DNA of 34,288 bases from a virus. Lineage: Duplodnaviria; Heunggongvirae; Uroviricota; Caudoviricetes. The stretch lies in IMG/VR virus record IMGVR_UViG_2548876869_000012; one strand, given 5' to 3'. The translations under genes were made by a program, and so were the position numbers. This document shows, piece after piece, positions 8,648 through 30,127 of this stretch. The notes beneath the pieces were generated by a model. The model saw only the letters and a list, made by a program, of their open reading frames with translations. It had not been told where the DNA came from and did no database searches. How positions within the stretch are numbered: the first letter of the stretch is position 1; every line of letters begins with the position of its first letter.

Positions 8648-8929
8648 ATGACATACGCACTGATTGATAATTCAACTCTAACTGCAGTCCAAAGAATCGA
8701 GGGGAAAGTAAAAACAAGATCGAAGGACTCAGTAGATACAGACATAATAGCATTTGAGAACTATATACAGTCTATTTTGTTCTATGATCACGTTATCGCG
8801 GTTGATGATTATATTCCAGAGTACCGTGGGAGTAGGATTTCAAGTTTCAGAGAGATATTATTTCTTGATAAAGCACAATATGGGTTGGATGAAATTGAAA
8901 GTGAAGCAAAAAAATATCTGATGCATTGA
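8648..8929 (+). CDS. Hypothetical protein (93 aa), first ORF of the cargo module at the Z/fun locus
   Basis: ATG with RBS AAGGA; AT-rich; opposite strand to the flanking late operons; no motif I recognise. Confidence 0.55.
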   Translation: MTYALIDNSTLTAVQRIEGKVKTRSKDSVDTDIIAFENYIQSILFYDHVIAVDDYIPEYRGSRISSFREILFLDKAQYGLDEIESEAKKYLMH

Positions 8930-10065
8930 AACCTAAAATTCGTGGTGGAACATTTGTTAATGACGATTTTAAAAAACTAATTGAACTTCTTCAGACACAT
9001 ATCATATGTACATGGGACATTAGTTCAAGTGTTTATCATCTAACACTGAAGAACTTATCTGATGGAGGTAAGGAGTTTGAAAAATATGGTAACATTGCTG
9101 CTGCCATTTTTTCAGAACTGCGTGATGCTGCTGAGTCTGGTAATAGAACAAATGGCGATGTTGAACTTCTCGATCGATTTGGCAACCCTATTCGCAAGGG
9201 GTACAAAGTTCCCGGAGCAAAATGGGGGGATGGCACATCTGCTGGTGAAGCATCAGATGCAATCAAAGCATTCGTGGCTTCGCTTGTATGGCTGGCTAAT
9301 CGGGCAGTATTTTATTCTCTCACAGCTAAGTACCTTCAAGCAGATACTTTTTTATATCCATTACGTCAGGCGTATCAACAGACATATTTAAGCCAAAACT
9401 GTCAGTATGGTTTTGACTATGCTAAACATATTGTAGAAAACTTTTCCACTTCGTTAAGTCATGATCTCATTGATATTCATTCTGGTGGTAAAGCTGTAGC
9501 AACAGCAACTTCGCTTCCTTTATTTTCGGCATGGCTCGCAAAAGAAACTGGTGATCCAAGTTGTATTGTTGAAGCTGCTTATAACATAAGGGACAACAAC
9601 GAATTTGTAAGGGCCCGTGAGAAAATGCGAGAAATAAAGCGCTTGTTTGATGAAAATGAATTGCCTCAAGCTAATAAGTCAGTAAGAGCATTGCTTACTG
9701 AAGTATCGAAAGAATCAGATTATATTCGAACTAAGTATGGGCTCAAGACTAGACAAGGTGTACCTGTAACTAAGCTTGTACATGTATACAATACTGTTGC
9801 GGCTATTAATTCCCTTCCGAAACTACCGACCTTTAATTTTAAAGTTAAAGTTCCTGATTTCTTATATGATCTTAAAAAACCCAAGGGGTTTCGTGCTCTC
9901 TATCGAAATTTGACTAATGATCTTTCTACTGTGTGGTCGTTAGGAGAAGCTCGAGATATTCTTGGAAGTAAAGTTGTGATAGATAATCATGCAAGAATTT
10001 ACAGTCCGAAGCATGAAGAACCGCGTTTCAAAAACTCTCATTCCCCATATAAGAGCCCGATGTAG
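8926..10065 (+). CDS. Hypothetical protein (379 aa), second ORF of the cargo module; TTG start overlapping the upstream stop (TTGA), possibly the continuation of one frameshifted gene
   Basis: Long open frame in AT-rich DNA; no in-frame ATG near the 5' end; A7 run at 8908-8914 immediately upstream would join it to the 93-aa ORF by a -1 shift. Confidence 0.55.
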   Translation: MKPKIRGGTFVNDDFKKLIELLQTHIICTWDISSSVYHLTLKNLSDGGKEFEKYGNIAAAIFSELRDAAESGNRTNGDVELLDRFGNPIRKGYKVPGAKWGDGTSAGEASDAIKAFVASLVWLANRAVFYSLTAKYLQADTFLYPLRQAYQQTYLSQNCQYGFDYAKHIVENFSTSLSHDLIDIHSGGKAVATATSLPLFSAWLAKETGDPSCIVEAAYNIRDNNEFVRAREKMREIKRLFDENELPQANKSVRALLTEVSKESDYIRTKYGLKTRQGVPVTKLVHVYNTVAAINSLPKLPTFNFKVKVPDFLYDLKKPKGFRALYRNLTNDLSTVWSLGEARDILGSKVVIDNHARIYSPKHEEPRFKNSHSPYKSPM

Positions 10066-10710: not shown

Positions 10711-13029
10711 TTATACCTGCGCCACGTTATACCAAGTCCCGTTAATGTATTTCTGCACCGGTCTGTAATATACGCCACCAATGTTATCGGCAGAGTTTGA
10801 GCCGGTATCCTGAACAATAATGCCGGAATATACACACCCGGACGGTGCCTGATGTGTCCATGTCATACCATTGTTCGCAGGTTTGTATGTGGCAGCACCA
10901 CCAAGCCGGATATCCCGGACATAGCGTGAATCAAAATTACTATAGTTAGATGGTGATACCTGCCCGTTAACAGCAAAAGTGATGCTGTTATCTGTATTTC
11001 TCTGACTGTAAAAATGCCAGCCTGCATCATCACCTAATTCAGCCACCACCGGACGACTTGAGTTTCCCCACAAATTGAATGCGGCTTCCTTCGTGGATGT
11101 ATTACTGCTGCTGACCGTGAATTTTTTCCCGCTACCGGCACGTACTTTGGTACTTGAGGCAATATCACCAGTAACACTCAGGCCATGCCCCATTGATACA
11201 GCACCCGTGGCATCATTTATAATCAGTGGTCTTAAATTATTATAAGTGCCTAATCTGTCACCTGATTTAGTCAACATAAAATAAGTGCTGCTGCCATCAT
11301 TCCTGATAAAGAATCCATAATTGCCATAAGCAATGCGCAGACCATTAGCACTGCTTGATGTAATCTCACCTCTTGAACGGAGACCATAAGCGGAGCTGAG
11401 TGATAATTCTTCCTGAGCATCAGTATTACCAGTCGCCCAGCGAACTACCCCGCCCTGTACTGTTTCATGCCAGATAGTGTCTCCTTCTCCACCACGAAAC
11501 TTTCTGAGATATTTTTTGCCGCCTCTGGTGCCTGAACATAAGGCCGTAGACATATAGGCATTCTGGCTTCCGCCATCCTGATTAATCGTTCCGGTCATTG
11601 CGTCGCCCTGACGATTCCAGTCACGACGCCAGCCGGGGGAGTAGCCGTCCCCATGATTAATGTAAGTGAATTGCGCGCTGGTTGTACCGCCACCGCTTGA
11701 TGTTGTCGGCGTGGTCACTCGGATAGTGATTGCAGATTTAGTTCCCATGACCTCGACGACACAACCAGCCAGGTGGATATCACCACATCCGGTATCCGTA
11801 ATGATTTTGTTATTTGCATATGACCAGGAGCCTTTGCACATCCAGTACGGATGATTAAATGCACCACGGGAATCCAGCCATTCAATAAACTGAGCGGTTG
11901 TCCAGTTTCCGGCTTCAGTGCTCAAACCGCCGCTATAAGCACGACAGGCACCGATATTTTTCGTGAAGGTATCCTTTCCCGGAATATCCGCACCGTTCTG
12001 ATCTTTCTGAAGACGTTTTTCAGCATTGTCATAGGCAGACTTCACTGCTTTTGGCGTTGCCGCGAGGGTTTCAGAATCACTGTTGGTGGCGCTACTGAGC
12101 TGGACAAGCCCTTTTCGCGCTGTGGTGGCATCCTGTGCAGTGTATTTCCCGTTAGCAAGGTCATACGCTGTCTTAACCGCCTTTGGCGTTGCCGCAAGCG
12201 TTTCAGAATCGCTGTTGGTGACGCTACTTAGCTGGACAAGGCCTTTTCGCGCGGTGGTGGCGTCCTGTGCGGTATATTTCCCGTTAGCCAGGTCATATGC
12301 TGCTTTTACCGCTTTTGGTGTTGCAGCGAGCGTTTCAGACGTGCTGTTGGTGGCACTACTGAGCTGGACAAGACCTTTTCGCGCTGTGGTGGCATCCTGC
12401 GCAGTATATTTCCCGTTAGCAAGGTCATACGCGGCCTTTACCGCTTTCGGCGTTGCGGCCAGTGTTTCAGACGTGCTGTTGGTCGCACTGCTTAACTGAG
12501 TAAAACCTTTGGCGGTCAGCGAGGCGTCCGGGTGACGTCGTGACTGTTCGTGCTCTGCAATTTTGTCATCAACGTAATCCTGCGTCGCCATCACTGTTGT
12601 GGTGTCAATGGTCAGCTCCACTGAGGCCACACTGCTGACGATGATGACCATGCGACAGGTCTGCGAACGCCCTGAGCCTTCGGCGAGAGCTGGCTTATAA
12701 CTTTCGGCCATGTTCGCCACGGCAATTAATGTTCCCGCATCATCGTACAGGCCAAGCTCACGCATCCAGAAACCGCCCACCTCCGGCGGAATAACCAGCT
12801 CTGCGATAATATAATTACTGTTTCGTTTGTCCTGGCTGATTTTGTTCAGCGCATGTCGCCAGACTTCATGGATAAGTCCGGTCTGTCCGGCATCCGGGAC
12901 AGGCAATTTACCACCGCCATCCCCGACGGCCATCGTGGTAATGTTGACCTTCCGCCCTCCCGGTGCGGTTGCCGCTGCCAGCTTTGCTGCACCGGCAGTG
13001 GTGATAACGGTTCTGAATTTTGTGCTCAT
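10711..13029 (-). CDS. H: Tail fiber protein H (772 aa) with internal 44-aa tandem repeats
   Basis: P2 synteny; conserved N-terminus; about 100 aa longer than P2 gpH (669 aa) because of the repeats. Confidence 0.9.
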   Translation of the reverse strand: MSTKFRTVITTAGAAKLAAATAPGGRKVNITTMAVGDGGGKLPVPDAGQTGLIHEVWRHALNKISQDKRNSNYIIAELVIPPEVGGFWMRELGLYDDAGTLIAVANMAESYKPALAEGSGRSQTCRMVIIVSSVASVELTIDTTTVMATQDYVDDKIAEHEQSRRHPDASLTAKGFTQLSSATNSTSETLAATPKAVKAAYDLANGKYTAQDATTARKGLVQLSSATNSTSETLAATPKAVKAAYDLANGKYTAQDATTARKGLVQLSSVTNSDSETLAATPKAVKTAYDLANGKYTAQDATTARKGLVQLSSATNSDSETLAATPKAVKSAYDNAEKRLQKDQNGADIPGKDTFTKNIGACRAYSGGLSTEAGNWTTAQFIEWLDSRGAFNHPYWMCKGSWSYANNKIITDTGCGDIHLAGCVVEVMGTKSAITIRVTTPTTSSGGGTTSAQFTYINHGDGYSPGWRRDWNRQGDAMTGTINQDGGSQNAYMSTALCSGTRGGKKYLRKFRGGEGDTIWHETVQGGVVRWATGNTDAQEELSLSSAYGLRSRGEITSSSANGLRIAYGNYGFFIRNDGSSTYFMLTKSGDRLGTYNNLRPLIINDATGAVSMGHGLSVTGDIASSTKVRAGSGKKFTVSSSNTSTKEAAFNLWGNSSRPVVAELGDDAGWHFYSQRNTDNSITFAVNGQVSPSNYSNFDSRYVRDIRLGGAATYKPANNGMTWTHQAPSGCVYSGIIVQDTGSNSADNIGGVYYRPVQKYINGTWYNVAQV
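12027..12519. repeat. Tandem repeat inside H: about 3.7 copies of a 132-bp (44-aa) unit
   Basis: Unit start GTTTCAGA recurs at 12068, 12200, 12332 and 12464; protein unit TAQDATTARKGLVQLSSATNS(T/D)SETLAATPKAVKxAYDLANGKY. Confidence 0.85.
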
Positions 13030-21883: not shown

Positions 21884-23656
21884 ATGACCATCACCACAGA
21901 CACCACTCTTTTACACGACCCGCGTCGTCAGGCGGCGCTGCTGTACTGGCAGGGGTTTTCCGTGCCGCAGATTGCCGCCATGTTGCAGATGAAACGCCCG
22001 ACGGTGCAGAGCTGGAAACAGCGCGACGGCTGGGACAGCGTTGCCCCCATCAGCCGTGTCGAAATGAGTCTGGAAGCGCGGCTGACCCAGCTCATCATCA
22101 AACCGCAGAAAACCGGCGGTGACTTCAAGGAAATTGACCTGCTGGGACGCCAGATTGAACGACTGGCACGGGTCAACCGTTACAGTCAGACCGGCAACGA
22201 GGCAGACCTTAATCCGAACGTCGCTAACCGCAACAAAGGCGGGCGTCGCAAACCGAAAAAGAATTTTTTCAGCGACGAAGCCATCGAAAAGCTGGAGCAG
22301 ATTTTCTTTGAGCAGTCTTTCGAATATCAGTTGCACTGGTATCGCGCCGGGCTTGAGCACCGCATCCGCGATATCCTGAAATCCCGCCAGATTGGCGCAA
22401 CGTTTTATTTTTCCCGCGAGGCGCTGCTGCGTGCCCTGAAAACCGGTCATAACCAGATTTTTCTGTCGGCCAGTAAAACGCAGGCGTATGTGTTCCGCGA
22501 ATACATCATCGCCTTTGCCCGGCTGGTTGACGTTGACCTGACCGGTGACCCGATTGTCCTGGGCAATAACGGCGCAAAACTGATTTTTCTCGGCACCAAC
22601 TCCAACACCGCGCAGAGCCATAACGGCGACCTGTACGTCGACGAGATTTTCTGGATCCCGAATTTTCAGGTACTGCGTAAGGTGGCATCAGGTATGACCT
22701 CACAGAGTCACCTGCGCTCGACCTATTTCTCCACCCCGTCCACGCTGGCGCACGACGCCTACCCGTTCTGGTCGGGTGAACTGTTTAACCGGGGACGCGC
22801 CAGCGCCGCCGAACGCGTGGAAATCGACGTCAGTCATAACGCCCTTGCCGGTGGGCTTCTCTGTGCGGACGGCCAGTGGCGACAGATTGTCACCATTGAG
22901 GACGCGCTGAAAGGCGGCTGCACGCTGTTCGACATTGAGCAGCTCAAACGCGAAAACAGCGCCGACGATTTTAAAAACCTGTTCATGTGTGAATTTGTTG
23001 ACGACAAGGCATCGGTGTTCCCGTTCGAGGAGCTGCAACGCTGCATGGTCGACACGCTGGAAGAATGGGAAGACTATGCACCCTTTGCCGCCAATCCGTT
23101 CGGCTCCCGCCCGGTATGGATTGGTTACGACCCGTCACACCGTGGCGACAGCGCCGGATGCGTGGTGCTGGCACCGCCGGTGGTGGCCGGTGGCAAATTC
23201 AGAATACTTGAGCGTCACCAGTGGAAAGGCATGGACTTTGCCACCCAGGCGGAATCCATCCGCAAACTCACCGAAAAATACAACGTCGAATACATCGGTA
23301 TTGATGCCACCGGCCTCGGTGTCGGCGTGTTCCAGCTCGTGCGCTCGTTCTATCCTGCCGCGCGCGACATCCGCTACACGCCGGAAATGAAAACCGCAAT
23401 GGTGCTCAAGGCAAAAGACGTTATCCGCCGTGGCTGTCTGGAATACGACGTCAGCGCCACCGACATCACCAGCTCGTTTATGGCTATCCGCAAGACCATG
23501 ACCAGCAGCGGACGCAGCGCCACCTATGAGGCCAGCCGCAGCGAGGAAGCCAGCCACGCCGACCTCGCCTGGGCGACCATGCACGCCCTGTTAAATGAGC
23601 CACTCACCGCCGGTATCAGCACCCCGCTGACATCCACCATTCTGGAGTTTTACTGA
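21884..23656 (+). CDS. P: Terminase large (ATPase) subunit P (590 aa)
   Basis: ATG at 21884 (MTITTDTTLLHDPRRQAALLYWQGF...) with a GAGG RBS; 590 aa as in P2 P; divergent from O. Confidence 0.9.
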   Translation: MTITTDTTLLHDPRRQAALLYWQGFSVPQIAAMLQMKRPTVQSWKQRDGWDSVAPISRVEMSLEARLTQLIIKPQKTGGDFKEIDLLGRQIERLARVNRYSQTGNEADLNPNVANRNKGGRRKPKKNFFSDEAIEKLEQIFFEQSFEYQLHWYRAGLEHRIRDILKSRQIGATFYFSREALLRALKTGHNQIFLSASKTQAYVFREYIIAFARLVDVDLTGDPIVLGNNGAKLIFLGTNSNTAQSHNGDLYVDEIFWIPNFQVLRKVASGMTSQSHLRSTYFSTPSTLAHDAYPFWSGELFNRGRASAAERVEIDVSHNALAGGLLCADGQWRQIVTIEDALKGGCTLFDIEQLKRENSADDFKNLFMCEFVDDKASVFPFEELQRCMVDTLEEWEDYAPFAANPFGSRPVWIGYDPSHRGDSAGCVVLAPPVVAGGKFRILERHQWKGMDFATQAESIRKLTEKYNVEYIGIDATGLGVGVFQLVRSFYPAARDIRYTPEMKTAMVLKAKDVIRRGCLEYDVSATDITSSFMAIRKTMTSSGRSATYEASRSEEASHADLAWATMHALLNEPLTAGISTPLTSTILEFY

Positions 23657-24690
23657 TGAGCAAGAAAAAAGGGAAAACACCGCAACCTGCGGCAAAAACA
23701 ATGATCGCCAGCGCCCCGAAAATGGAGGCATTCACCTTTGGCGAGCCGGTACCGGTACTCGACCGCCGTGACATTCTGGATTACGTCGAATGCATCAGTA
23801 ACGGCAGATGGTATGAGCCACCGGTCAGCTTTACCGGTCTGGCAAAAAGCCTGCGTGCTGCCGTGCATCACAGCTCGCCGATTTACGTTAAACGCAATAT
23901 TCTGGCCTCGACATTTATCCCGCATCCGTGGCTTTCACAGCAGAATTTCAGCCGCTTTGTGCTGGACTTTCTGGTGTTCGGTAATGCGTTTCTGGAAAAG
24001 CGTTACAGCACCACCGGTAAGGTCATCAGACTGGAAACCTCACCGGCAAAATATACCCGCCGTGGCGTGGAAGAGGATGTTTACTGGTGGGTGCCGTCCT
24101 TCCATGAGCCGACACCTTTCGCGCCCGGCTCCGTGTTTCACCTGCTGGAGCCGGATATTAATCAGGAGCTGTACGGTCTGCCGGAATATCTCAGCGCCCT
24201 TAACTCTGCCTGGCTGAATGAATCAGCCACGCTGTTCCGCCGCAAGTATTACGAAAACGGCGCTCATGCCGGATACATCATGTACGTTACCGATGCCGTG
24301 CAGGATCGCAACGATATCGAAATGCTTCGCGAAAACATGGTGAAGTCGAAAGGCCGCAACAACTTTAAAAACCTGTTTCTCTATGCCCCGCAGGGGAAAG
24401 CCGACGGCATTAAAATTATCCCGCTCAGTGAAGTGGCGACGAAGGACGATTTTTTTAATATCAAAAAAGCCAGCGCCGCTGACCTGCTGGACGCGCACCG
24501 CATCCCCTTTCAGTTGATGGGCGGCAAGCCGGAAAACGTCGGGTCTCTGGGTGATATTGAGAAAGTGGCAAAGGTCTTTGTCCGCAATGAACTTATCCCG
24601 CTACAGGACAGGATTCGGGAAATAAACGGCTGGCTCGGTCAGGAGGTCATCCGCTTTAAAAACTACTCACTGGACACTGACAACGGCTGA
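23656..24690 (+). CDS. Q: Portal protein Q (344 aa)
   Basis: Start overlaps the P stop (TGATG); P2 length. Confidence 0.9.
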   Translation: MSKKKGKTPQPAAKTMIASAPKMEAFTFGEPVPVLDRRDILDYVECISNGRWYEPPVSFTGLAKSLRAAVHHSSPIYVKRNILASTFIPHPWLSQQNFSRFVLDFLVFGNAFLEKRYSTTGKVIRLETSPAKYTRRGVEEDVYWWVPSFHEPTPFAPGSVFHLLEPDINQELYGLPEYLSALNSAWLNESATLFRRKYYENGAHAGYIMYVTDAVQDRNDIEMLRENMVKSKGRNNFKNLFLYAPQGKADGIKIIPLSEVATKDDFFNIKKASAADLLDAHRIPFQLMGGKPENVGSLGDIEKVAKVFVRNELIPLQDRIREINGWLGQEVIRFKNYSLDTDNG

Positions 24691-24859: not shown

Positions 24860-24878
24860 GTGCTTTCCCCGCCTCGCC
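24860..24878. other. cos: cos site (19-nt cohesive-end sequence, P2 type)
   Basis: GTGCTTTCCCCGCCTCGCC is the reverse complement of GGCGAGGCGGGGAAAGCAC, which I recall as the P2 cohesive end; located just past Q as in P2. Confidence 0.6.
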
Positions 24879-25025
24879 CGCCCGCTTCATGCAGGGCTTT
24901 AAATGCAGTGCAGCAGTAATGGTTAGAATGCGCCAGCACTGATGTTAGATACCAGAACTGGCATTTAAAAATGAATGCAAATAAATGCACCAAACTAATT
25001 ACTTACTGACAAAAAATAAGTAAAA

Positions 25026-25910
25026 TCAGGCGCAAGTTGGCATTGAGACCCCTTTCAGGGTATTAGGAATAATTATTTCAGGAGAAAAAATCATCACTTC
25101 CTCTCCAGATTTTTTGAGATGCGCTGTATATTGCAATGAATACTCAACTTGCGGAAATCCATTATAAATATCTTTAATTTCCTTAGCGTTATCATAAGAA
25201 ACAAGCCAATTTGGGAAATTAATTTCTGTGAGTTTCTTCATAACCAATACATGATCATCATGCTCATAAAAATTCCTGTAAAGCCCTTGTCCTTTAATAT
25301 AGTAAGGAGGATCCAAATACAAAAGAATTTTATTTTTATCCACCTTTCCCATATTATCCATAAAATTCAAGGCATCAAGAAAATCCAAAGCATCCAGATT
25401 AGTTACTACTATTCTTTGATTATAATTTGCTATCTTCTCAATTCTTGAAATTAAATCCGCCCTGTTAAAGCGAACATCCATTTTCCATTTTCCATTTTGT
25501 GATTTCCCGCCTATAACCCCCGCCTTGAGAATACCTGAACGATTTGTTCTATTTAAGAAAAACGCAGCAAAGCCAACCTCAAGCTTAGTAAACTCAGAAG
25601 GATTCGAAATAACATAGCGATGAAAAGACCATTCATCCATATCTATCTTTGCTCGGCTAATAAGTCGGCAAAGCTCATCAGTATCACTAACAACAGATGA
25701 CCAAAAAGAATAAACAGCAAAATCTGCATCATTTATATAGATTTTACGGACATACTCTTCCAATAATAATTCTAAAGCCACCCCTGCACCACCAGCGTAA
25801 GGTTCTGCATATGCTCCATCATTCAACGAGTTTTTTTCAATAACATCTTTTAAAAAGTAAGATAACTTACCTTTCCCGCCGGGGTATCTTAATGGAGTAT
25901 AAAATTTCAT
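25026..25910 (-). CDS. Dam-family DNA N6-adenine methyltransferase (294 aa)
   Basis: Motif I-like EPYAGGAGV near the N-terminus and catalytic DPPY (YLDPPYY); AT-rich cargo at the P2 tin/old position; ATG with GAGGG RBS. Confidence 0.8.
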   Translation of the reverse strand: MKFYTPLRYPGGKGKLSYFLKDVIEKNSLNDGAYAEPYAGGAGVALELLLEEYVRKIYINDADFAVYSFWSSVVSDTDELCRLISRAKIDMDEWSFHRYVISNPSEFTKLEVGFAAFFLNRTNRSGILKAGVIGGKSQNGKWKMDVRFNRADLISRIEKIANYNQRIVVTNLDALDFLDALNFMDNMGKVDKNKILLYLDPPYYIKGQGLYRNFYEHDDHVLVMKKLTEINFPNWLVSYDNAKEIKDIYNGFPQVEYSLQYTAHLKKSGEEVMIFSPEIIIPNTLKGVSMPTCA

Positions 25911-25979
25911 AAATCCCTCTCATTCCTGATTTTGTAGTTTATCAGTTTCTGGACATCCATGTCCAGATGTAGACAAATC

Positions 25980-27482
25980 TCACTCACTCCAAATAAGGCT
26001 TAATAACAACTCAAAGTTATCCCACTCAGTGTTGACAGCCTCTTTTGAGGGAATTAAGTGTGGGTTATGTACATACTGCTGCAATGAACCATCATGTTTA
26101 GTTATTTGGCTCGAGAAAGTTATTACAGCCGTACATTGACTCCCCGTCATCTTTTTATTTTCCCGAAGGAAATTAGCACACATTTTAACCTTATCATGAA
26201 GCCCTGGAGTTCTATGTGGTTCCTTAAATTGTAACTTGTTTTCTTCAACAAAAGTGCTTACAGAGAGATCTATAAATATTCTCAACAATATTGAGATAGC
26301 ATTAGGGGTGTTATCAAATGTCAGATGCGACTTAAGCTCATTAAATATTCTAGAGCATTTCTTATGCCCTCTAAAATTAAATTTCACATAAGATGGCACC
26401 AACACATTACGATCTACTTTAGGAGGAGTTTTTCCCTTGTTTTTATTCTGTTCCGTACCCGAAACTTTAGATTTACTCTCTTCTGTGCCTACATGTCTAG
26501 AATAATCATCTTCCTGTTTATCCACACCTGTATTCTTTAAGGCATCACCTTCTGAAAGACCTGCTTTCTTTACACTCACAGATGCATCATTTTTGTCAAT
26601 AGAATCATGTTTTTTCTCTGTAAGAAAAGATTTAGGCTCTAGTAAACTCCACGGCTTATCTAAAAGAGATTCTGAAGGTTTTATTTTTTGTTCAATAATA
26701 AATGTAACCCTGTCATCTTGGCTACGAATCCTATTAACAGTAAAACAAGCCTTACCTTTATCATCCTCTTCAATCATTACATCTAAAATATTTTTTAATT
26801 GTGCACAAAAACGTTCATAAGGCTGATATGAGTATAGAACTCCATTAATGCTTTTTAAATTAAAATAATCCCTCACCTTTAAATCACCAAAAAGACGCGT
26901 GATGTTTGTGATTTTTAAAAGTCTTTTTTTAGCAATTATCTCTTTATATAAATCAGTATTGAACTCTATAAATGTAAGTATTTGATTACCAAATGACTGC
27001 TTACCCATCCTAGCCAGATGTCGTGCTTTTTCTGTTGCAGTCCATTCAACTCTTCCAACTCCAGCATTTTGACCAGTATGCTTTAAATTGACCCAATGCT
27101 CATATTCATCATCGTCAAAAAGAACGCAGTTATCTATAACATTAATATCTTTAAGCTGAGTAATCTTAAGTTTTTCAAAAGCTTTCCGTGCTTTTTCTGT
27201 TGGTGCAAGTCTAGGAGAGTGTAAAAGTTTAAGGGCTGTAACTCGACGATTACCTTCAGCAACGACGAAAAAGCCAGATTCCTCTTCACTAGGATAAACT
27301 AATATGTTTTCAGACGGATCTAAACCTTTCGAAGCAATATCTTTAGCCAAGCGATAAATGCGGTCGTACTGCAAGTCAAGCATCTTGGCAATAGCATCAC
27401 GCTGATTTTCTGCTGACGTCGGGAAACGAGGGTTATCAACATCCAAAAGTAACTTATTGATATTCATTGATTTTAGTTGATT
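25980..27482 (-). CDS. ParB/Srx-superfamily N-terminal-domain protein with unassigned C-terminal domain (about 500 aa; alternative upstream ATG at 27554 gives 524 aa)
   Basis: N-terminus INKLLLDVDNPRF ... VVAEGNRRVTALKLL resembles the ParB N-terminal nuclease/CTPase fold (GxxRxxA box); preferred start ATG at 27480-27482 has a GAGGA RBS; AT-rich; sits 69 bp upstream of the Dam gene on the same strand. Confidence 0.6.
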   Translation of the reverse strand, partial: NQLKSMNINKLLLDVDNPRFPTSAENQRDAIAKMLDLQYDRIYRLAKDIASKGLDPSENILVYPSEEESGFFVVAEGNRRVTALKLLHSPRLAPTEKARKAFEKLKITQLKDINVIDNCVLFDDDEYEHWVNLKHTGQNAGVGRVEWTATEKARHLARMGKQSFGNQILTFIEFNTDLYKEIIAKKRLLKITNITRLFGDLKVRDYFNLKSINGVLYSYQPYERFCAQLKNILDVMIEEDDKGKACFTVNRIRSQDDRVTFIIEQKIKPSESLLDKPWSLLEPKSFLTEKKHDSIDKNDASVSVKKAGLSEGDALKNTGVDKQEDDYSRHVGTEESKSKVSGTEQNKNKGKTPPKVDRNVLVPSYVKFNFRGHKKCSRIFNELKSHLTFDNTPNAISILLRIFIDLSVSTFVEENKLQFKEPHRTPGLHDKVKMCANFLRENKKMTGSQCTAVITFSSQITKHDGSLQQYVHNPHLIPSKEAVNTEWDNFELLLSLIWSE

Positions 27483-27841
27483 CATCAACATATCCTCTGT
27501 TGAATCTTTATGATAAAAATTAATTATTTTTATCATAAATGATAGCGTAAACATAGTCTTATGAACGACATCAGCCCTGAAGCTTCAAAACTATCATTTA
27601 CGTTTGCGAGGCACCATCTATCACATTGATTTATAATAAGTATCTTTATTTTCACTGCATTGCTCTCAAAAAATCACATAGATGGAAATTCCCCGTTGAC
27701 ACACTCCCAAGTGATGCAGATACATTTCAAGTGCTTCATACACATGATAACGGCTATCCCCCTAAATTCTATGCGTTTCTTTTCCCTCCAGCACAAGGTT
27801 GAAATATCTTGCGTGCAGCTTTACTTTGTGAATCTTTGTCA

Positions 27842-30127
27842 TTATATCCGCGCCATTACTGTTGAGAATCCCGGACACTCATCAGCGACCGGATACGTGA
27901 ATTTTTTCCCGTCATAATTTACGGTCGCGCCACGCGCCAGCGCCTCAAGCTCCCATCGCTGCGGCCTGATACCGTTCTGAGCAAGGTCAACGCGGATACG
28001 GGTAATTTGCATTCTTTCCGACCGGGTCAGTCTGGCCGATGGTGCAATTTCATGTGGTTTTAACGGGCTTCCGTTTCTCTGCTGACGATTTGGTGTTCTC
28101 AGCCCGTATTTTAATGCGCCCCTGAGCGCCCTCACGACCTCCGGGTCATTCCATTCGATAACACCGTCATCAACCAGATTAAGCACTGCTGCGGCGTGTT
28201 CAGAAGGTGTGGGAGCCGGTAACGAAGTATCACCACCGGTGAGCTTTCCACAGTTATTGACAGGACTCCGAGGCGCGGCGATGCCGCTTTTTAAAGTCAA
28301 AGGCTCAACGACCGGTACTTTCGGAACAATGCGCCAGTCCGTCGTTCTGGTGATATGAATATGACGCGCGCCGAGATGCGGCGCGTAAATGCCGACCACT
28401 CTCTCGACTTCTTCCTCGTACTCGTTAACTTCATCCGACGGACTACGGGCAACCCTGACAGTCTGACAATCGCGCGGAACATTTGCCCCACCCTGCGCGC
28501 TGATATACAACGCAAAATCACCACTGTCTGCGGCAGCGCGTGCAGCCTCGACGCGTTCGTCAAACTCATCAGCAATGCTGACGCCGCGAGGCAATTTGCG
28601 TAGTTCACGGTAAGCCCCCATTGTCGGCAGGCCAACCGTTTTAAATTGCGGAATGCGCCACGTTGACGCCCATGCGGTAACAGCCGCGGCAGTGTCTTTC
28701 AGCGGCCTGCCGGTATCGTTATCGAGCTGACCATCCAGTGCATAGCCATCGATGTTTTTTGAGATGTATTTCGCGATATATCCCGCAGCACCGCCCCGGT
28801 TAAGGTGTTTTGCCTGAAAACGGTTTCGCGCGGCTCCTCTTTCGTCACCATCCTCTTTGAGCGCATAGCGACGCATGATTTCGATAATCTGGTTACGCTG
28901 GCGTGGATTACAAAAAAGCATCATATGCCAGTGCGGCGTTCCGTCGTGGTGTGGCTCGACGACTCGCAAACCGTAGACCTGTAAATCATTATCCTTGAAT
29001 GCCGTGCGCATCAGGCTCCAGATGCGGCAGAGATAACGCTGCGCATCCTTTGGATTAAATGCCTCATCATTCCAGCCGTGATTTAGCTGGACGGTTTTAC
29101 TTTCGCCTTTTCCGACCTGACGTGTCGGGTGATACTTTGACGGCGCGGTCAGAGTGATAAACATCCCCACATCACCCTCTGCGGCGGCGTAACGCTCAAT
29201 ACCGGCGATGGTGTTCATCAGCTCCATCCGGCGAATTTCAGGATTAGAAATACTGCCCATCACCTTACTGATAAGGTCGATGCGCTCGCCGGTTTCCCTG
29301 TTTTCGAGGTCACACGATTTAAGAAATTCCAGATTTGCCTGGCGGCGTGCACGCACATCACGAATGGCATGTTTACTGGCATAAGGAGAACGGTCTTTAT
29401 TGACCTCCCCGACAGCAATCAGTAACGCCTCATGCCAGCGCATACGCTGGCCTTTAAGCTGATGAGTCCACCACTCATCGTTAAACAGACGGGCAATGGC
29501 AGAATATGCCTGCCTCGTGGTCATCTGTCCTTTACGGTATTTTTTCCAGTAGAGAGGGGAAATATTGAAAGCACGTGCAGCGCCAGCAACATGACCATAC
29601 AGATGCGCCTGCGCCTCATCTGTAAACAGCGATTCTTTCTCGCCATGTGCATCAACCCATGCATCGCAGAGTTCCTCATACATCATGAAAAGCTGCGATG
29701 AGATACGGGCGGCAAACTTTTTCAGCTCCTTGTCATTCATCCCCGGCAGACGCGCATAATGGTCACGCTCTGCCAGAAACAGCAACGACGCGTCGGTGTT
29801 CATTTCATGGCGCTGATTCACGCGCTCAATACGCGGCCATAAACGGCGCTGAAAAGTGGATGTGAGGAAATAAAATCCGTGCACCGGGCTTTTATTGCGC
29901 CGGATGTAGTCATAGCGTGAAGTAAACAGCGAGCGCAAAAAGTAAGGCAGGCGATTAATCGTGGATAAAACACCTTGCACCTGACGCATCTCGTCACGTG
30001 TAAGGGGTCTTTCGCGCCCGACGGCCTCGCGTGGCGCGTTCCATGCATAAGCACCGGTAAACGTCTCACCGGTGCCTGCGGCAAATGCTGACGGAGGGAC
30101 AAAACGCCCGGAGGCTTTAACGGCCAT
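27842..30127 (-). CDS. A: Replication initiator A, rolling-circle nickase (761 aa)
   Basis: Start at MAVKASGRFVPPSAFAAG...; HUH motif in EPHHDGTPHWHMMLF and tyrosine motif GYIAKYISK; P2 length. Confidence 0.9.
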   Translation of the reverse strand: MAVKASGRFVPPSAFAAGTGETFTGAYAWNAPREAVGRERPLTRDEMRQVQGVLSTINRLPYFLRSLFTSRYDYIRRNKSPVHGFYFLTSTFQRRLWPRIERVNQRHEMNTDASLLFLAERDHYARLPGMNDKELKKFAARISSQLFMMYEELCDAWVDAHGEKESLFTDEAQAHLYGHVAGAARAFNISPLYWKKYRKGQMTTRQAYSAIARLFNDEWWTHQLKGQRMRWHEALLIAVGEVNKDRSPYASKHAIRDVRARRQANLEFLKSCDLENRETGERIDLISKVMGSISNPEIRRMELMNTIAGIERYAAAEGDVGMFITLTAPSKYHPTRQVGKGESKTVQLNHGWNDEAFNPKDAQRYLCRIWSLMRTAFKDNDLQVYGLRVVEPHHDGTPHWHMMLFCNPRQRNQIIEIMRRYALKEDGDERGAARNRFQAKHLNRGGAAGYIAKYISKNIDGYALDGQLDNDTGRPLKDTAAAVTAWASTWRIPQFKTVGLPTMGAYRELRKLPRGVSIADEFDERVEAARAAADSGDFALYISAQGGANVPRDCQTVRVARSPSDEVNEYEEEVERVVGIYAPHLGARHIHITRTTDWRIVPKVPVVEPLTLKSGIAAPRSPVNNCGKLTGGDTSLPAPTPSEHAAAVLNLVDDGVIEWNDPEVVRALRGALKYGLRTPNRQQRNGSPLKPHEIAPSARLTRSERMQITRIRVDLAQNGIRPQRWELEALARGATVNYDGKKFTYPVADECPGFSTVMARI

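What the first reader, a model, noticed from the sequence alone, without database searches (positions are those of the whole stretch)
25026..27482. AT-rich two-gene cargo at the P2 tin/old locus: ParB/Srx-like protein plus Dam-family methyltransferase
Between cos and the 3' end of gene A, where P2 carries the defence genes tin and old, the prophage instead has two co-oriented genes in markedly AT-rich DNA (by eye well below the backbone). The upstream gene encodes a protein of about 500 aa whose N-terminus has ParB/Srx-fold hallmarks (DVDNPRF, VVAEGNRRVTALKLL), followed by a long domain with no motif I recognise. The downstream gene is a Dam-family N6-adenine methyltransferase (DPPY). I see no Walker A, TOPRIM or other Old/Tin-like features, so this is not P2 old/tin. 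A nuclease-fold protein paired with a methyltransferase at a known defence hotspot suggests an atypical restriction-modification-like or modification-coupled anti-phage module. The alternative is an orphan protective methylase with a ParB-like partner, since ParB-MTase fusions are common in phages.
Basis: partly seen in the sequence, partly recalled or inferred. Interest (0 to 1): 0.85.

Follow-up and report, generated by a model that had tools for sequence, protein, structure and literature searches.

The report
Known PD-lambda-5 anti-phage module in P2 prophage
The two AT-rich genes are real, but they are the anti-phage system PD-lambda-5, which has already been tested experimentally and sits here at the well-known defence hotspot of a P2-like prophage; only its mechanism is still open.

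Summary
Two co-oriented minus-strand genes lie in a 35% GC island in a 53% GC window, between the P2 cos site (24860-24878) and the 3' end of gene A (27842). The upstream gene encodes a 501-aa ParB-like protein (25980-27485). The downstream gene encodes a 294-aa D12-class adenine methyltransferase (25026-25910).

Both proteins match the PADLOC models PD-Lambda-5_A and PD-Lambda-5_B over their full length (E 6e-168 and 1e-121). The large protein is 501/501 identical, and the methylase 292/294 identical, to the locus in E. coli A7 (orangutan isolate). That strain's methylase carries accession RCQ13838.1, the ECOR7 PD-lambda-5B validated by Vassallo et al. 2022.

New here:
- The N-terminal half has a ParB/KorB/PadC-type NTPase fold with an invariant EGNRR motif.
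- The ParB-like gene and the methylase gene are adjacent in 72 of 73 testable loci across many phyla.

The mechanism is unsolved. My best guess is self-marking by m6A, an NTP-gated ParB-type DNA sensor and a HEPN-like effector. Novelty: already known. Interest: low to moderate.

The parts
24860..24878 (-). P2 cos cohesive-end sequence (context; one boundary of the hotspot)
   Evidence: Exact match to GGCGAGGCGGGGAAAGCAC; 0 matches in 100 shuffles. The sequence was recalled from memory. Its position next to the portal gene fits P2.
24943..27760 (.). AT-rich cargo island inserted at P2 defence hotspot 1 (approximate edges)
   Evidence: GC 0.30-0.39 against 0.52-0.60 in the flanks. Similarity to P2-like phages ends at about 24912-24942. 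A truncated DUF3850 remnant starts at 27761.
25026..25910 (-). PD-lambda-5B: D12-class N6-adenine DNA methyltransferase, 294 aa
   Evidence: PADLOC PD-Lambda-5_B 1.4e-121. Pfam PF02086 3.6e-16, 60.1 bits against a cut-off of 22. DPPY at aa 200-203. 292/294 identical to P0018, which carries accession RCQ13838.1.
25980..27485 (-). PD-lambda-5A: 501-aa ParB-like / HEPN-like protein (stop codon included)
   Evidence: PADLOC PD-Lambda-5_A 5.9e-168, full length. 501/501 identical to WP_001072651.1 in E. coli A7 and 3359.
27111..27485 (-). A protein aa 1-125: ParB/Srx NTPase-fold domain with NPR and EGNRR (Box II, GxxRxxA) motifs
26616..27110 (-). A protein aa 126-290: conserved W131/H136/G138/G142/W148 block, then a helical/small-sheet region; aa 206-290 is the most variable folded part
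   Evidence: AF2 model. Foldseek alignments to KorB/Noc/ParB NTD+HTH constructs span about 270-284 columns. Conservation and per-region identity.
26424..26615 (-). A protein aa 291-354: disordered, K/S/D/E-rich linker of variable length
   Evidence: pLDDT below 50 across 291-354. 13% mean pairwise identity and variable length.
25983..26423 (-). A protein aa 355-501: HEPN-fold helical domain with R402 (invariant) and H473 (76/77) but no Rx4-6H motif
27493..27497 (-). Shine-Dalgarno GAGGA, 7 nt before the ATG at 27485
   Evidence: Read directly from the sequence.
27523..27551 (-). Sigma-70-like promoter candidate TTTACG-17-AATAAT upstream of the A gene (weak evidence)
   Evidence: Consensus scan, 9/12 matches. 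The number of such sites in the region is not above the shuffled expectation.
27761..27842 (-). Truncated DUF3850 (PUA/ASCH-like) gene remnant; marks the gene-A side of the insertion
   Evidence: RefSeq pseudogene annotation on near-identical DNA. The sequence was read.
27842..30127 (-). P2 gene A-like replication endonuclease (context)
   Evidence: RefSeq annotation of near-identical DNA. ORF.
23656..24690 (+). P2 Q-like portal protein gene (context)
   Evidence: RefSeq annotation. ORF.

Best explanation
This is an intact copy of PD-lambda-5, a two-gene anti-phage module carried as cargo at the cos/gene-A hotspot of a P2-like prophage.

**Shown**
- Identity to the validated system.
- An active-looking D12 m6A methyltransferase.
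- A partner protein made of four parts: a ParB/Srx NTPase-fold domain, a ParB-like helical region, a disordered linker, and a HEPN-fold domain.
- Near-obligate linkage of the two genes.

**Inferred mechanism** (about 45% likely in this form)
1. The methylase marks host and prophage DNA at a short motif with N6-methyladenine.
2. The ParB-like half of the large protein binds DNA, and uses NTP binding at the invariant EGNRR pocket as a switch to engage DNA that lacks the mark.
3. This brings the C-terminal HEPN-like domains of two subunits together.
4. Those domains then cleave nucleic acid through a non-canonical site built around R402 and H473. RNA is the most likely target.
5. The infection stops, and the cell may be sacrificed at high phage load.

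This is the 'RM plus Abi in one protein' idea of Vassallo et al., made specific.
For: **Identity**
- PADLOC full-length hits to both components.
- A protein 501/501 and methylase 292/294 identical to the locus in E. coli A7, and only 8 nt differences in 3001 nt. That strain's methylase carries the PD-lambda-5B accession RCQ13838.1.

**Defence phenotype of that locus**
- Vassallo et al. 2022, PMC9519451: broad protection, strongest against T-even phages.
- It had to be cloned in an mrr-deleted host. Since Mrr attacks some m6A-modified DNA (established knowledge), this implies that the methylase modifies the chromosome.

**Domains**
- ParB/KorB/PadC/Srx fold.
- EGNRR invariant in 77/77 homologues.
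- HEPN fold for aa 355-501.
- R402 in 77/77 and H473 in 76/77 homologues.

**Linkage**
- 72 of 73 loci from many phyla have the D12 methylase directly downstream, and no third gene is conserved.
- The cassette is always complete in the 22 E. coli genomes that carry it.

**Specificity region**
- aa 206-290 is the most variable folded part, at 31% mean identity against 43-47% elsewhere. A specificity-determining region would behave this way.
Against: - No biochemical data exist for any step. I found no mechanistic follow-up paper.
- The canonical HEPN Rx4-6H motif is absent in 76 of 77 homologues, so the domain could be non-catalytic, as in Roquin or sacsin.
- The ParB fold alone does not show sequence- or methylation-specific DNA binding, and I could not identify Box III of the ParB CTPases.
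- Pfam's ParBc model does not reach E <= 0.1 on this protein. The ParB assignment rests on predicted structure and on the HHpred result in the paper (96.4%).
- I could not read from the paper's text whether PD-lambda-5 behaves as direct or abortive defence.
Confidence: 0.85

Rival explanations
1. A plain, compact Type II-like restriction-modification pair. The ParB-like domain itself is the DNase that nicks or cuts unmethylated DNA, and the HEPN-like domain serves only for dimerisation or regulation.
For: - The strict methylase linkage is what an RM pair shows.
- Pfam names PF02195 a 'ParB-like nuclease domain'.
- The invariant H136/G138/G142/W148/R197 block next to the ParB core could belong to an active site.
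- The HEPN-like domain lacks Rx4-6H.
Against: - No PD-(D/E)xK, HNH, GIY-YIG or PLD fold was detected.
- R402 (77/77) and H473 (76/77) in the C-terminal domain argue for a functional site there.
- Vassallo et al. excluded clones with the high-frequency escape plaques typical of RM, yet kept this system.
- Protection is strongest against T-even phages. From general knowledge, their glucosyl-hmC DNA resists most classical restriction enzymes.
Confidence: 0.25
2. A guard or addiction module. The large protein is a toxin held in check by ongoing methylation, or by the methylase protein itself. It fires when a phage blocks methylation or SAM supply, much as the anticodon nuclease PrrC guards the EcoprrI restriction system.
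For: - Vassallo's 'RM+Abi' description.
- The comparison with PrrC and PARIS drawn in PMC10799925.
- The HEPN fold is typical of abortive-infection toxins such as AbiA, AbiV, RnlA and HepT.
- Near-obligate gene linkage.
Against: - Protection against 9 of 10 very different phages is hard to explain by a single phage-encoded trigger.
- A ParB-type DNA-binding half is not needed for a pure protein-guard model.
Confidence: 0.1
3. Orphan protective methylase plus a ParB-like partner that serves the prophage itself (anti-restriction, partition or regulation), with no defence role.
For: ParB-methyltransferase fusions are common in phages and prophages, and are suspected anti-defence factors (PMC12704722).
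Against: - The cloned two-gene cassette defends K-12 on its own.
- The architecture here is two separate genes with a HEPN-fold effector, not a ParB-methylase fusion.
- The module also occurs outside prophages, among chromosomal genes.
Confidence: 0.03

Closest known systems
PD-lambda-5 (Vassallo et al. 2022, Nat Microbiol; ECOR7 locus RCQ13837.1 + RCQ13838.1; PADLOC PD-Lambda-5_A/B)
   Same: - Same two genes, in the same order, at the same P2 hotspot.
- A protein identical and methylase 99.3% identical to the strain that carries RCQ13838.1.
- Full-length PADLOC matches to both components.
   Different: - Two conservative-looking substitutions in the methylase (A180V, V288G).
- 8 nt differences in 3 kb.
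ParB-CTPase fold proteins (ParB, Noc, KorB, PadC) and the wider ParB/Srx superfamily (DndB; DUF262 of GmrSD/BrxU/SspE)
   Same: - Predicted fold.
- NPR and GxxRxxA (EGNRR) motifs.
- A helical region after the NTD that aligns with the KorB/Noc/ParB NTD+HTH constructs.
   Different: - No ParA partner, no recognisable Box III and no C-terminal dimerisation domain.
- Fused through a disordered linker to a HEPN-fold domain.
- Below the Pfam ParBc threshold.
- Nucleotide preference unknown.
HEPN nucleases of defence systems (HepT, AbiA C-terminus, AbiV, RnlA/LsoA, Csm6, PrrC/RloC-type RM-linked anticodon nucleases)
   Same: - C-terminal effector position.
- Association with a methylase-based self-marking system, as PrrC is associated with EcoprrI.
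   Different: - Canonical Rx4-6H is missing. In its place is a hydrophobic-[N/H/Q]-x-[Y/F]-V-H motif, plus an invariant Arg (R402) on an earlier helix.
- No RNase activity has been shown.
Classical Type II restriction-modification systems
   Same: - Two adjacent genes, one of them an m6A methylase, tightly linked and mobile.
   Different: - No recognised restriction-endonuclease fold.
- The partner is a ParB-like/HEPN-like protein.
P2 old and tin
   Same: - Same cargo position between gene A and cos.
- Same role as prophage-encoded defence against other phages.
   Different: - No sequence or domain relationship. There is no Old or Tin PADLOC hit, and no ATPase/TOPRIM domain.

Membership tests
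PD-lambda-5 defence system | Component A: full-length match to the PD-Lambda-5_A profile | tested here: met
   PDLC03998, E 5.9e-168, 557.5 bits, ORF residues 24-523 on profile positions 1-465 of 466.
PD-lambda-5 defence system | Component B: match to the PD-Lambda-5_B methyltransferase profile | tested here: met
   PDLC04018, E 1.4e-121, residues 1-286 on profile positions 1-280 of 291.
PD-lambda-5 defence system | The two genes are adjacent and co-oriented, A upstream of B | tested here: met
   69-nt gap, both on the minus strand. The same arrangement is found in 69 of 73 loci elsewhere.
PD-lambda-5 defence system | Sequence identity to the experimentally validated ECOR7 locus | tested here: met
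   A protein 501/501 and B 292/294 identical to E. coli A7 (orangutan isolate). That strain's methylase sequence carries accession RCQ13838.1. RCQ13837.1 itself was not retrieved; this link is inferred from the same genome.
PD-lambda-5 defence system | Reduces plaquing of phages when expressed from its native promoter | not testable with these tools
   Shown for the ECOR7 allele by Vassallo et al., not for this allele.
ParB/Srx (ParB-CTPase fold) superfamily | ParB/Srx fold of the N-terminal domain | tested here: met
   [not shown]
ParB/Srx (ParB-CTPase fold) superfamily | Box II / P-motif GxxRxxA | tested here: met
   G78-N-R-R-V-T-A84. E77-R81 is invariant in 77/77 homologues. It aligns with GERRWRA of Noc.
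ParB/Srx (ParB-CTPase fold) superfamily | Passes the Pfam PF02195 (ParBc) sequence model | tested here: not met
   No Pfam hit at E <= 0.1 for this protein, and none among the top 25 families for 44 homologues. HHpred in the paper gives 96.4% probability.
ParB/Srx (ParB-CTPase fold) superfamily | NTP binding or hydrolysis | not testable with these tools
   Needs DRaCALA or ITC with CTP, ATP, GTP and UTP.
HEPN superfamily | Four-helix HEPN fold | tested here: met
   [not shown]
HEPN superfamily | Catalytic Rx4-6H motif | tested here: not met
   An Arg lies 4-7 residues before the conserved His (H473) in only 1 of 77 homologues. Position 468 is F/L. The 'RTPGLH' at 424-429 is not conserved.
HEPN superfamily | RNase activity | not testable with these tools
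D12-class (Dam-family) N6-adenine DNA methyltransferases | PF02086 above the gathering score, and the DPPY catalytic motif | tested here: met
   60.1 bits against a cut-off of 22. DPPY at aa 200-203 and an AGGAG SAM-binding motif.
Dam orthologues (GATC methylases, TIGR00571) | Score above the NCBIfam cut-off | tested here: not met
   47 bits against a cut-off of 114.85. The need for an mrr-deleted host also suggests a non-GATC specificity; that is an inference.
Classical Type II restriction-modification | A partner with a recognised restriction-endonuclease fold | tested here: not met
   [not shown]
P2 Old / Tin | Homology to Old (ATPase + TOPRIM) or Tin | tested here: not met
   PADLOC returns only PD-Lambda-5_A models for the large protein.

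The most novel reading that the evidence does not exclude
PD-lambda-5A may be a new kind of restriction effector. On this reading it is an NTP-gated ParB-type DNA clamp that loads on DNA lacking the partner's m6A mark and licenses a non-canonical HEPN nuclease, which uses an Arg on one helix and a His on another instead of Rx4-6H.

DNA methylation status would then be read out as RNA (or DNA) cleavage without any classical restriction-endonuclease fold. This would apply to a family of more than a thousand 50%-identity clusters across bacteria and some archaeal MAGs.
Probability: 0.3. Interest if true: 0.65.

Novelty: already known. Interest (0 to 1): 0.3.

Why it matters
As a discovery it adds little. 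The system, its hotspot and its phenotype were published in 2022, and it is already in PADLOC and used in routine defence-system annotation.

It does show that the first-stage reader can recognise a genuine defence module from sequence alone.

The open question is mechanistic: how a ParB-fold NTPase, a HEPN-like domain without the canonical catalytic motif, and a methylase together tell self from non-self. The conserved residues (EGNRR, H136/G138/G142/W148, R197, R402, H473) and the 72/73 gene linkage reported here give concrete targets for mutagenesis.

Tried and rejected
1. **Candidate HEPN motif.** I took 'RTPGLH' (aa 424-429) as a possible Rx4H motif. It is not conserved in the 44- or 77-sequence alignments.
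2. **Direct Pfam and NCBIfam searches of the large protein.** These gave nothing usable: no Pfam hit, and a RepB hit far below cut-off. Scanning 44 homologues gave only weak DUF5677, DUF4145 and Csm6-HEPN hits.
3. **Sequence profile against PDB.** Only a marginal Noc hit (E 0.077) and a spurious eL24 hit.
4. **Deposited phage genomes.** I looked for the cassette there and found none; it occurs only in prophages within bacterial genomes.
5. **Distant methylase hits in 105 other E. coli genomes.** The one locus I inspected, in JJ1886, is a different module: a methylase next to an AAA ATPase and an integrase.
6. **Other architectures for the C-terminal domain.** I searched 1.8 billion representative proteins. 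The best 150 hits all place the domain at the C-terminus: most are 416-560 aa, and the shorter ones are probably fragments (not checked). No alternative fusions were seen.
7. **Mechanistic follow-up papers on PD-lambda-5.** None found. Later papers only list the system or repeat the 'RM+Abi' remark. Rousset et al. 2022 do not mention it.
8. **3D proximity of R402 and H473.** I could not check this because model coordinates are not exposed.
Full report
**Observation**

One is a 294-aa ORF at 25026-25910. The other is a large ORF at 25980-27554.

The start of the large gene is the ATG at 27485, giving 501 aa. RefSeq annotates that start on identical DNA. The PADLOC profile begins at ORF residue 24. 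A GAGGA Shine-Dalgarno sequence lies 7 nt upstream.

The quoted motifs DVDNPRF, VVAEGNRRVTALKLL and DPPY are all present. The cassette is 35.1% GC, against 52.7% for the rest of the window.

The P2 cos 19-mer, which I recalled from memory, matches exactly at 24860-24878; no match is expected by chance. The flanking genes are annotated on near-identical E. coli DNA as terminase, portal and replication endonuclease. Similarity to P2-like phages ends at about 24912-24942. On the other side, a truncated DUF3850 gene remnant at 27761-27842 abuts the stop codon of gene A. The cargo insertion is therefore about 2.8 kb, at the cos/gene-A hotspot.

**What it is**

PADLOC gives full-length matches to PD-Lambda-5_A (E 5.9e-168) and PD-Lambda-5_B (E 1.4e-121). 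Pfam recognises only the D12 methyltransferase. NCBIfam places the methylase well below the Dam cut-off.

PD-lambda-5 was found by Vassallo et al. 2022 (PMC9519451) in ECOR7.
- Location: contig QOWS01000001, 264599-267059, proteins RCQ13837.1 and RCQ13838.1, described as 'ParB/HEPN, methyltransferase'.
[quoted passage not shown] Protection was stronger against T-even phages than against lambda-vir.
- It had to be cloned in a K-12 host with the mrr region deleted.
- Four of their systems lie at this same P2 position, where tin and old are found.

The exact-sequence look-up placed the window's methylase in a cluster containing a protein with accession RCQ13838.1. That protein's longest contig is 4,836,060 bp, which is the chromosome length of E. 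coli A7 from an orangutan.

Against that genome the window's large protein is 501/501 identical and the methylase 292/294 identical (A180V, V288G). There are 8 nt differences in 3001 nt. I did not retrieve RCQ13837.1 itself, so that link is by inference from the same genome. The finding is therefore an instance of a known, validated defence system.

**Anatomy of the large protein**

I aligned 44 full-length homologues (29-78% identical) and predicted the structure. Mean pLDDT is 80.6. Residues 1-290 and 360-501 are confident, and 291-354 are disordered.

*N-terminal half.*
- Foldseek against PDB gives KorB, Noc and ParB as best hits. Probability is about 1.0 with alignments of about 270-284 columns, but E is only about 2e-3 and TM-scores are low.
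- The ParB Box II motif GxxRxxA is present as G78-N-R-R-V-T-A84. It aligns with Noc's GERRWRA.

*C-terminal domain.*
- A separate model of aa 351-501 has pLDDT 90 and pTM 0.86.

**Conserved residues**

I extended the comparison to 77 A-proteins from 80 loci, each from a different species. They span Proteobacteria, Bacteroidota, Firmicutes, Actinobacteria, Acidobacteria and a few archaeal MAGs.
- Invariant: E77, G78, N79, R80, R81, H136, G138, G142, W148, R197 and R402.
- H473 is present in 76 of 77.
- The canonical HEPN Rx4-6H motif is absent. Only 1 of 77 sequences has an Arg 4-7 residues before the conserved His.
- The local motif is instead [F/L]-[N/H/Q]-x-[Y/F]-V-H-[N/S]. It looks like 'RNxxxH' without the Arg.
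- The invariant R402, followed by E/D406, sits on an earlier helix.
- The 'RTPGLH' I first suspected is not conserved.
- The most variable folded region is aa 206-290, at 31% mean pairwise identity against 43-47% for the other domains. That would suit a specificity determinant, but this is inference only.

**Gene linkage and distribution**

In three distant contexts the only conserved neighbour is a D12 methylase immediately downstream. These are a Desulfoluna integrase-bearing element, the A. baumannii chromosome, and a metagenomic contig among housekeeping genes.

Among the 80 loci, 73 have at least 900 nt after the A gene. Of those, 72 carry a strong D12 methylase directly downstream: 69 on the same strand and 3 convergent. 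The exception, L062, has only a weaker methylase-like ORF upstream.

In 5426 complete E. coli genomes the cassette occurs 22 times. It is always at least 99% identical, complete and chromosomal. It is absent from deposited phage genomes.

The C-terminal domain profile finds 2057 50%-identity clusters at E <= 1e-3. The best 150 all place the domain at the C-terminus; most are 416-560 aa, and the shorter ones are probably fragments, which I did not check.

**Most likely mechanism**

*Shown.* The defence phenotype of the near-identical locus is published. The domain folds are predicted. The motifs, the conservation and the gene linkage come from this analysis.

*Inferred.*
1. The methylase marks self DNA. 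The need for an mrr-deleted host fits an active, non-Dam m6A methylase.
2. The ParB-like half senses DNA that lacks the mark, using NTP binding at the EGNRR pocket as a switch. ParB, Noc and KorB work this way, and the fold can bind CTP, ATP or GTP according to PMC12704722.
3. The HEPN-like domains act as the effector after dimerisation.

I put about 45% on this specific chain and about 25% on a simpler model in which the ParB-like domain is itself the DNase. A guard/addiction model gets about 10%, and a non-defence role gets very little.

Strong activity against T-even phages, and the fact that the clone was not discarded as a typical RM with epigenetic escape plaques, lean away from a classical DNA-cutting RM. 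These points are only indirect.

**Comparison and novelty**

Membership in PD-lambda-5 is met on every testable criterion.
- ParB/Srx superfamily: met by fold and P-motif, but not by the Pfam sequence model.
- HEPN superfamily: met by fold, but the defining catalytic motif is not met. 'HEPN-like' is the safe wording.
- It is not Old or Tin, and it is not a classical Type II RM, because no restriction-endonuclease fold is present.

I found no paper that resolves the mechanism.

**Verdict**

The feature is already known. Interest is low to moderate (0.3), and what interest there is rests on the unresolved mechanism rather than on the discovery.

Noticed in passing
window 8648-10065 (+), poly-A run at about 8901-8907: A second AT-rich island (GC 0.33-0.40) lies between the tail sheath and tail-fibre assembly genes. 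This is the P2 Z/fun position, Vassallo's hotspot 2. It holds one gene split into two ORFs (93 + 379 aa) by a 1-nt deletion in a poly-A run (A7 here, A8 in E. coli 3359).

The intact version is a 472-aa hypothetical protein (WP_000220361.1, phrog_13435, unknown function). The two ORFs have no PADLOC or Pfam hit. Only 7 of 5426 complete E. coli genomes carry it. It is a candidate uncharacterised defence cargo. The frameshift could be real or a sequencing error.
   Followed up: partly
window 27761-27842 (-): A truncated N-terminal remnant of a DUF3850 (PUA/ASCH-like) gene lies directly after the gene A stop codon. RefSeq annotates it as a pseudogene on near-identical DNA. It marks where the cargo insertion cut the backbone.
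   Followed up: partly
window 27486-27554 (-): The open frame of the large gene runs 23 codons upstream of the real start. A promoter-like TTTACG-17-AATAAT lies inside this extension, and a GAGGA sequence lies 7 nt before the ATG at 27485. The extension is therefore probably untranslated leader.
   Followed up: yes
window 12028-12483 (within tail-fibre gene 10711-13029, -): A 132-nt tandem repeat, 3.5 copies, 86% matches. It encodes repeated 44-aa units of the type 'TAQDATTARKGLVQLSSATNS.SETLAATPKAVK.AYDLANGKY' in the tail-fibre protein.
   Followed up: no
L007 (E. coli JJ1886, NC_022648.1 2970515-2980896): The distantly related D12 methylase (about 65% nt identity over about 400 nt) found in about 105 other E. 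coli genomes sits, in the one locus I inspected (JJ1886), next to an AAA-family ATPase and a site-specific integrase. This is a different methylase-linked module, and I did not examine it further.
   Followed up: no
L062 (Actinocorallia sp., NZ_JAJLQY010000011.1): This is the only one of 73 testable loci where the A homologue has no D12 methylase directly downstream. A weaker methylase-like ORF (97 bits) lies about 1.3 kb upstream, and other ORFs follow the A gene. It may be a variant architecture.
   Followed up: partly
L027, L047 (Micrarchaeota MAGs), L052 (Methanobacteriota MAG): A-plus-methylase pairs also appear on contigs binned as archaeal MAGs. The module may therefore cross domains, or the contigs may be mis-binned.
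   Followed up: no
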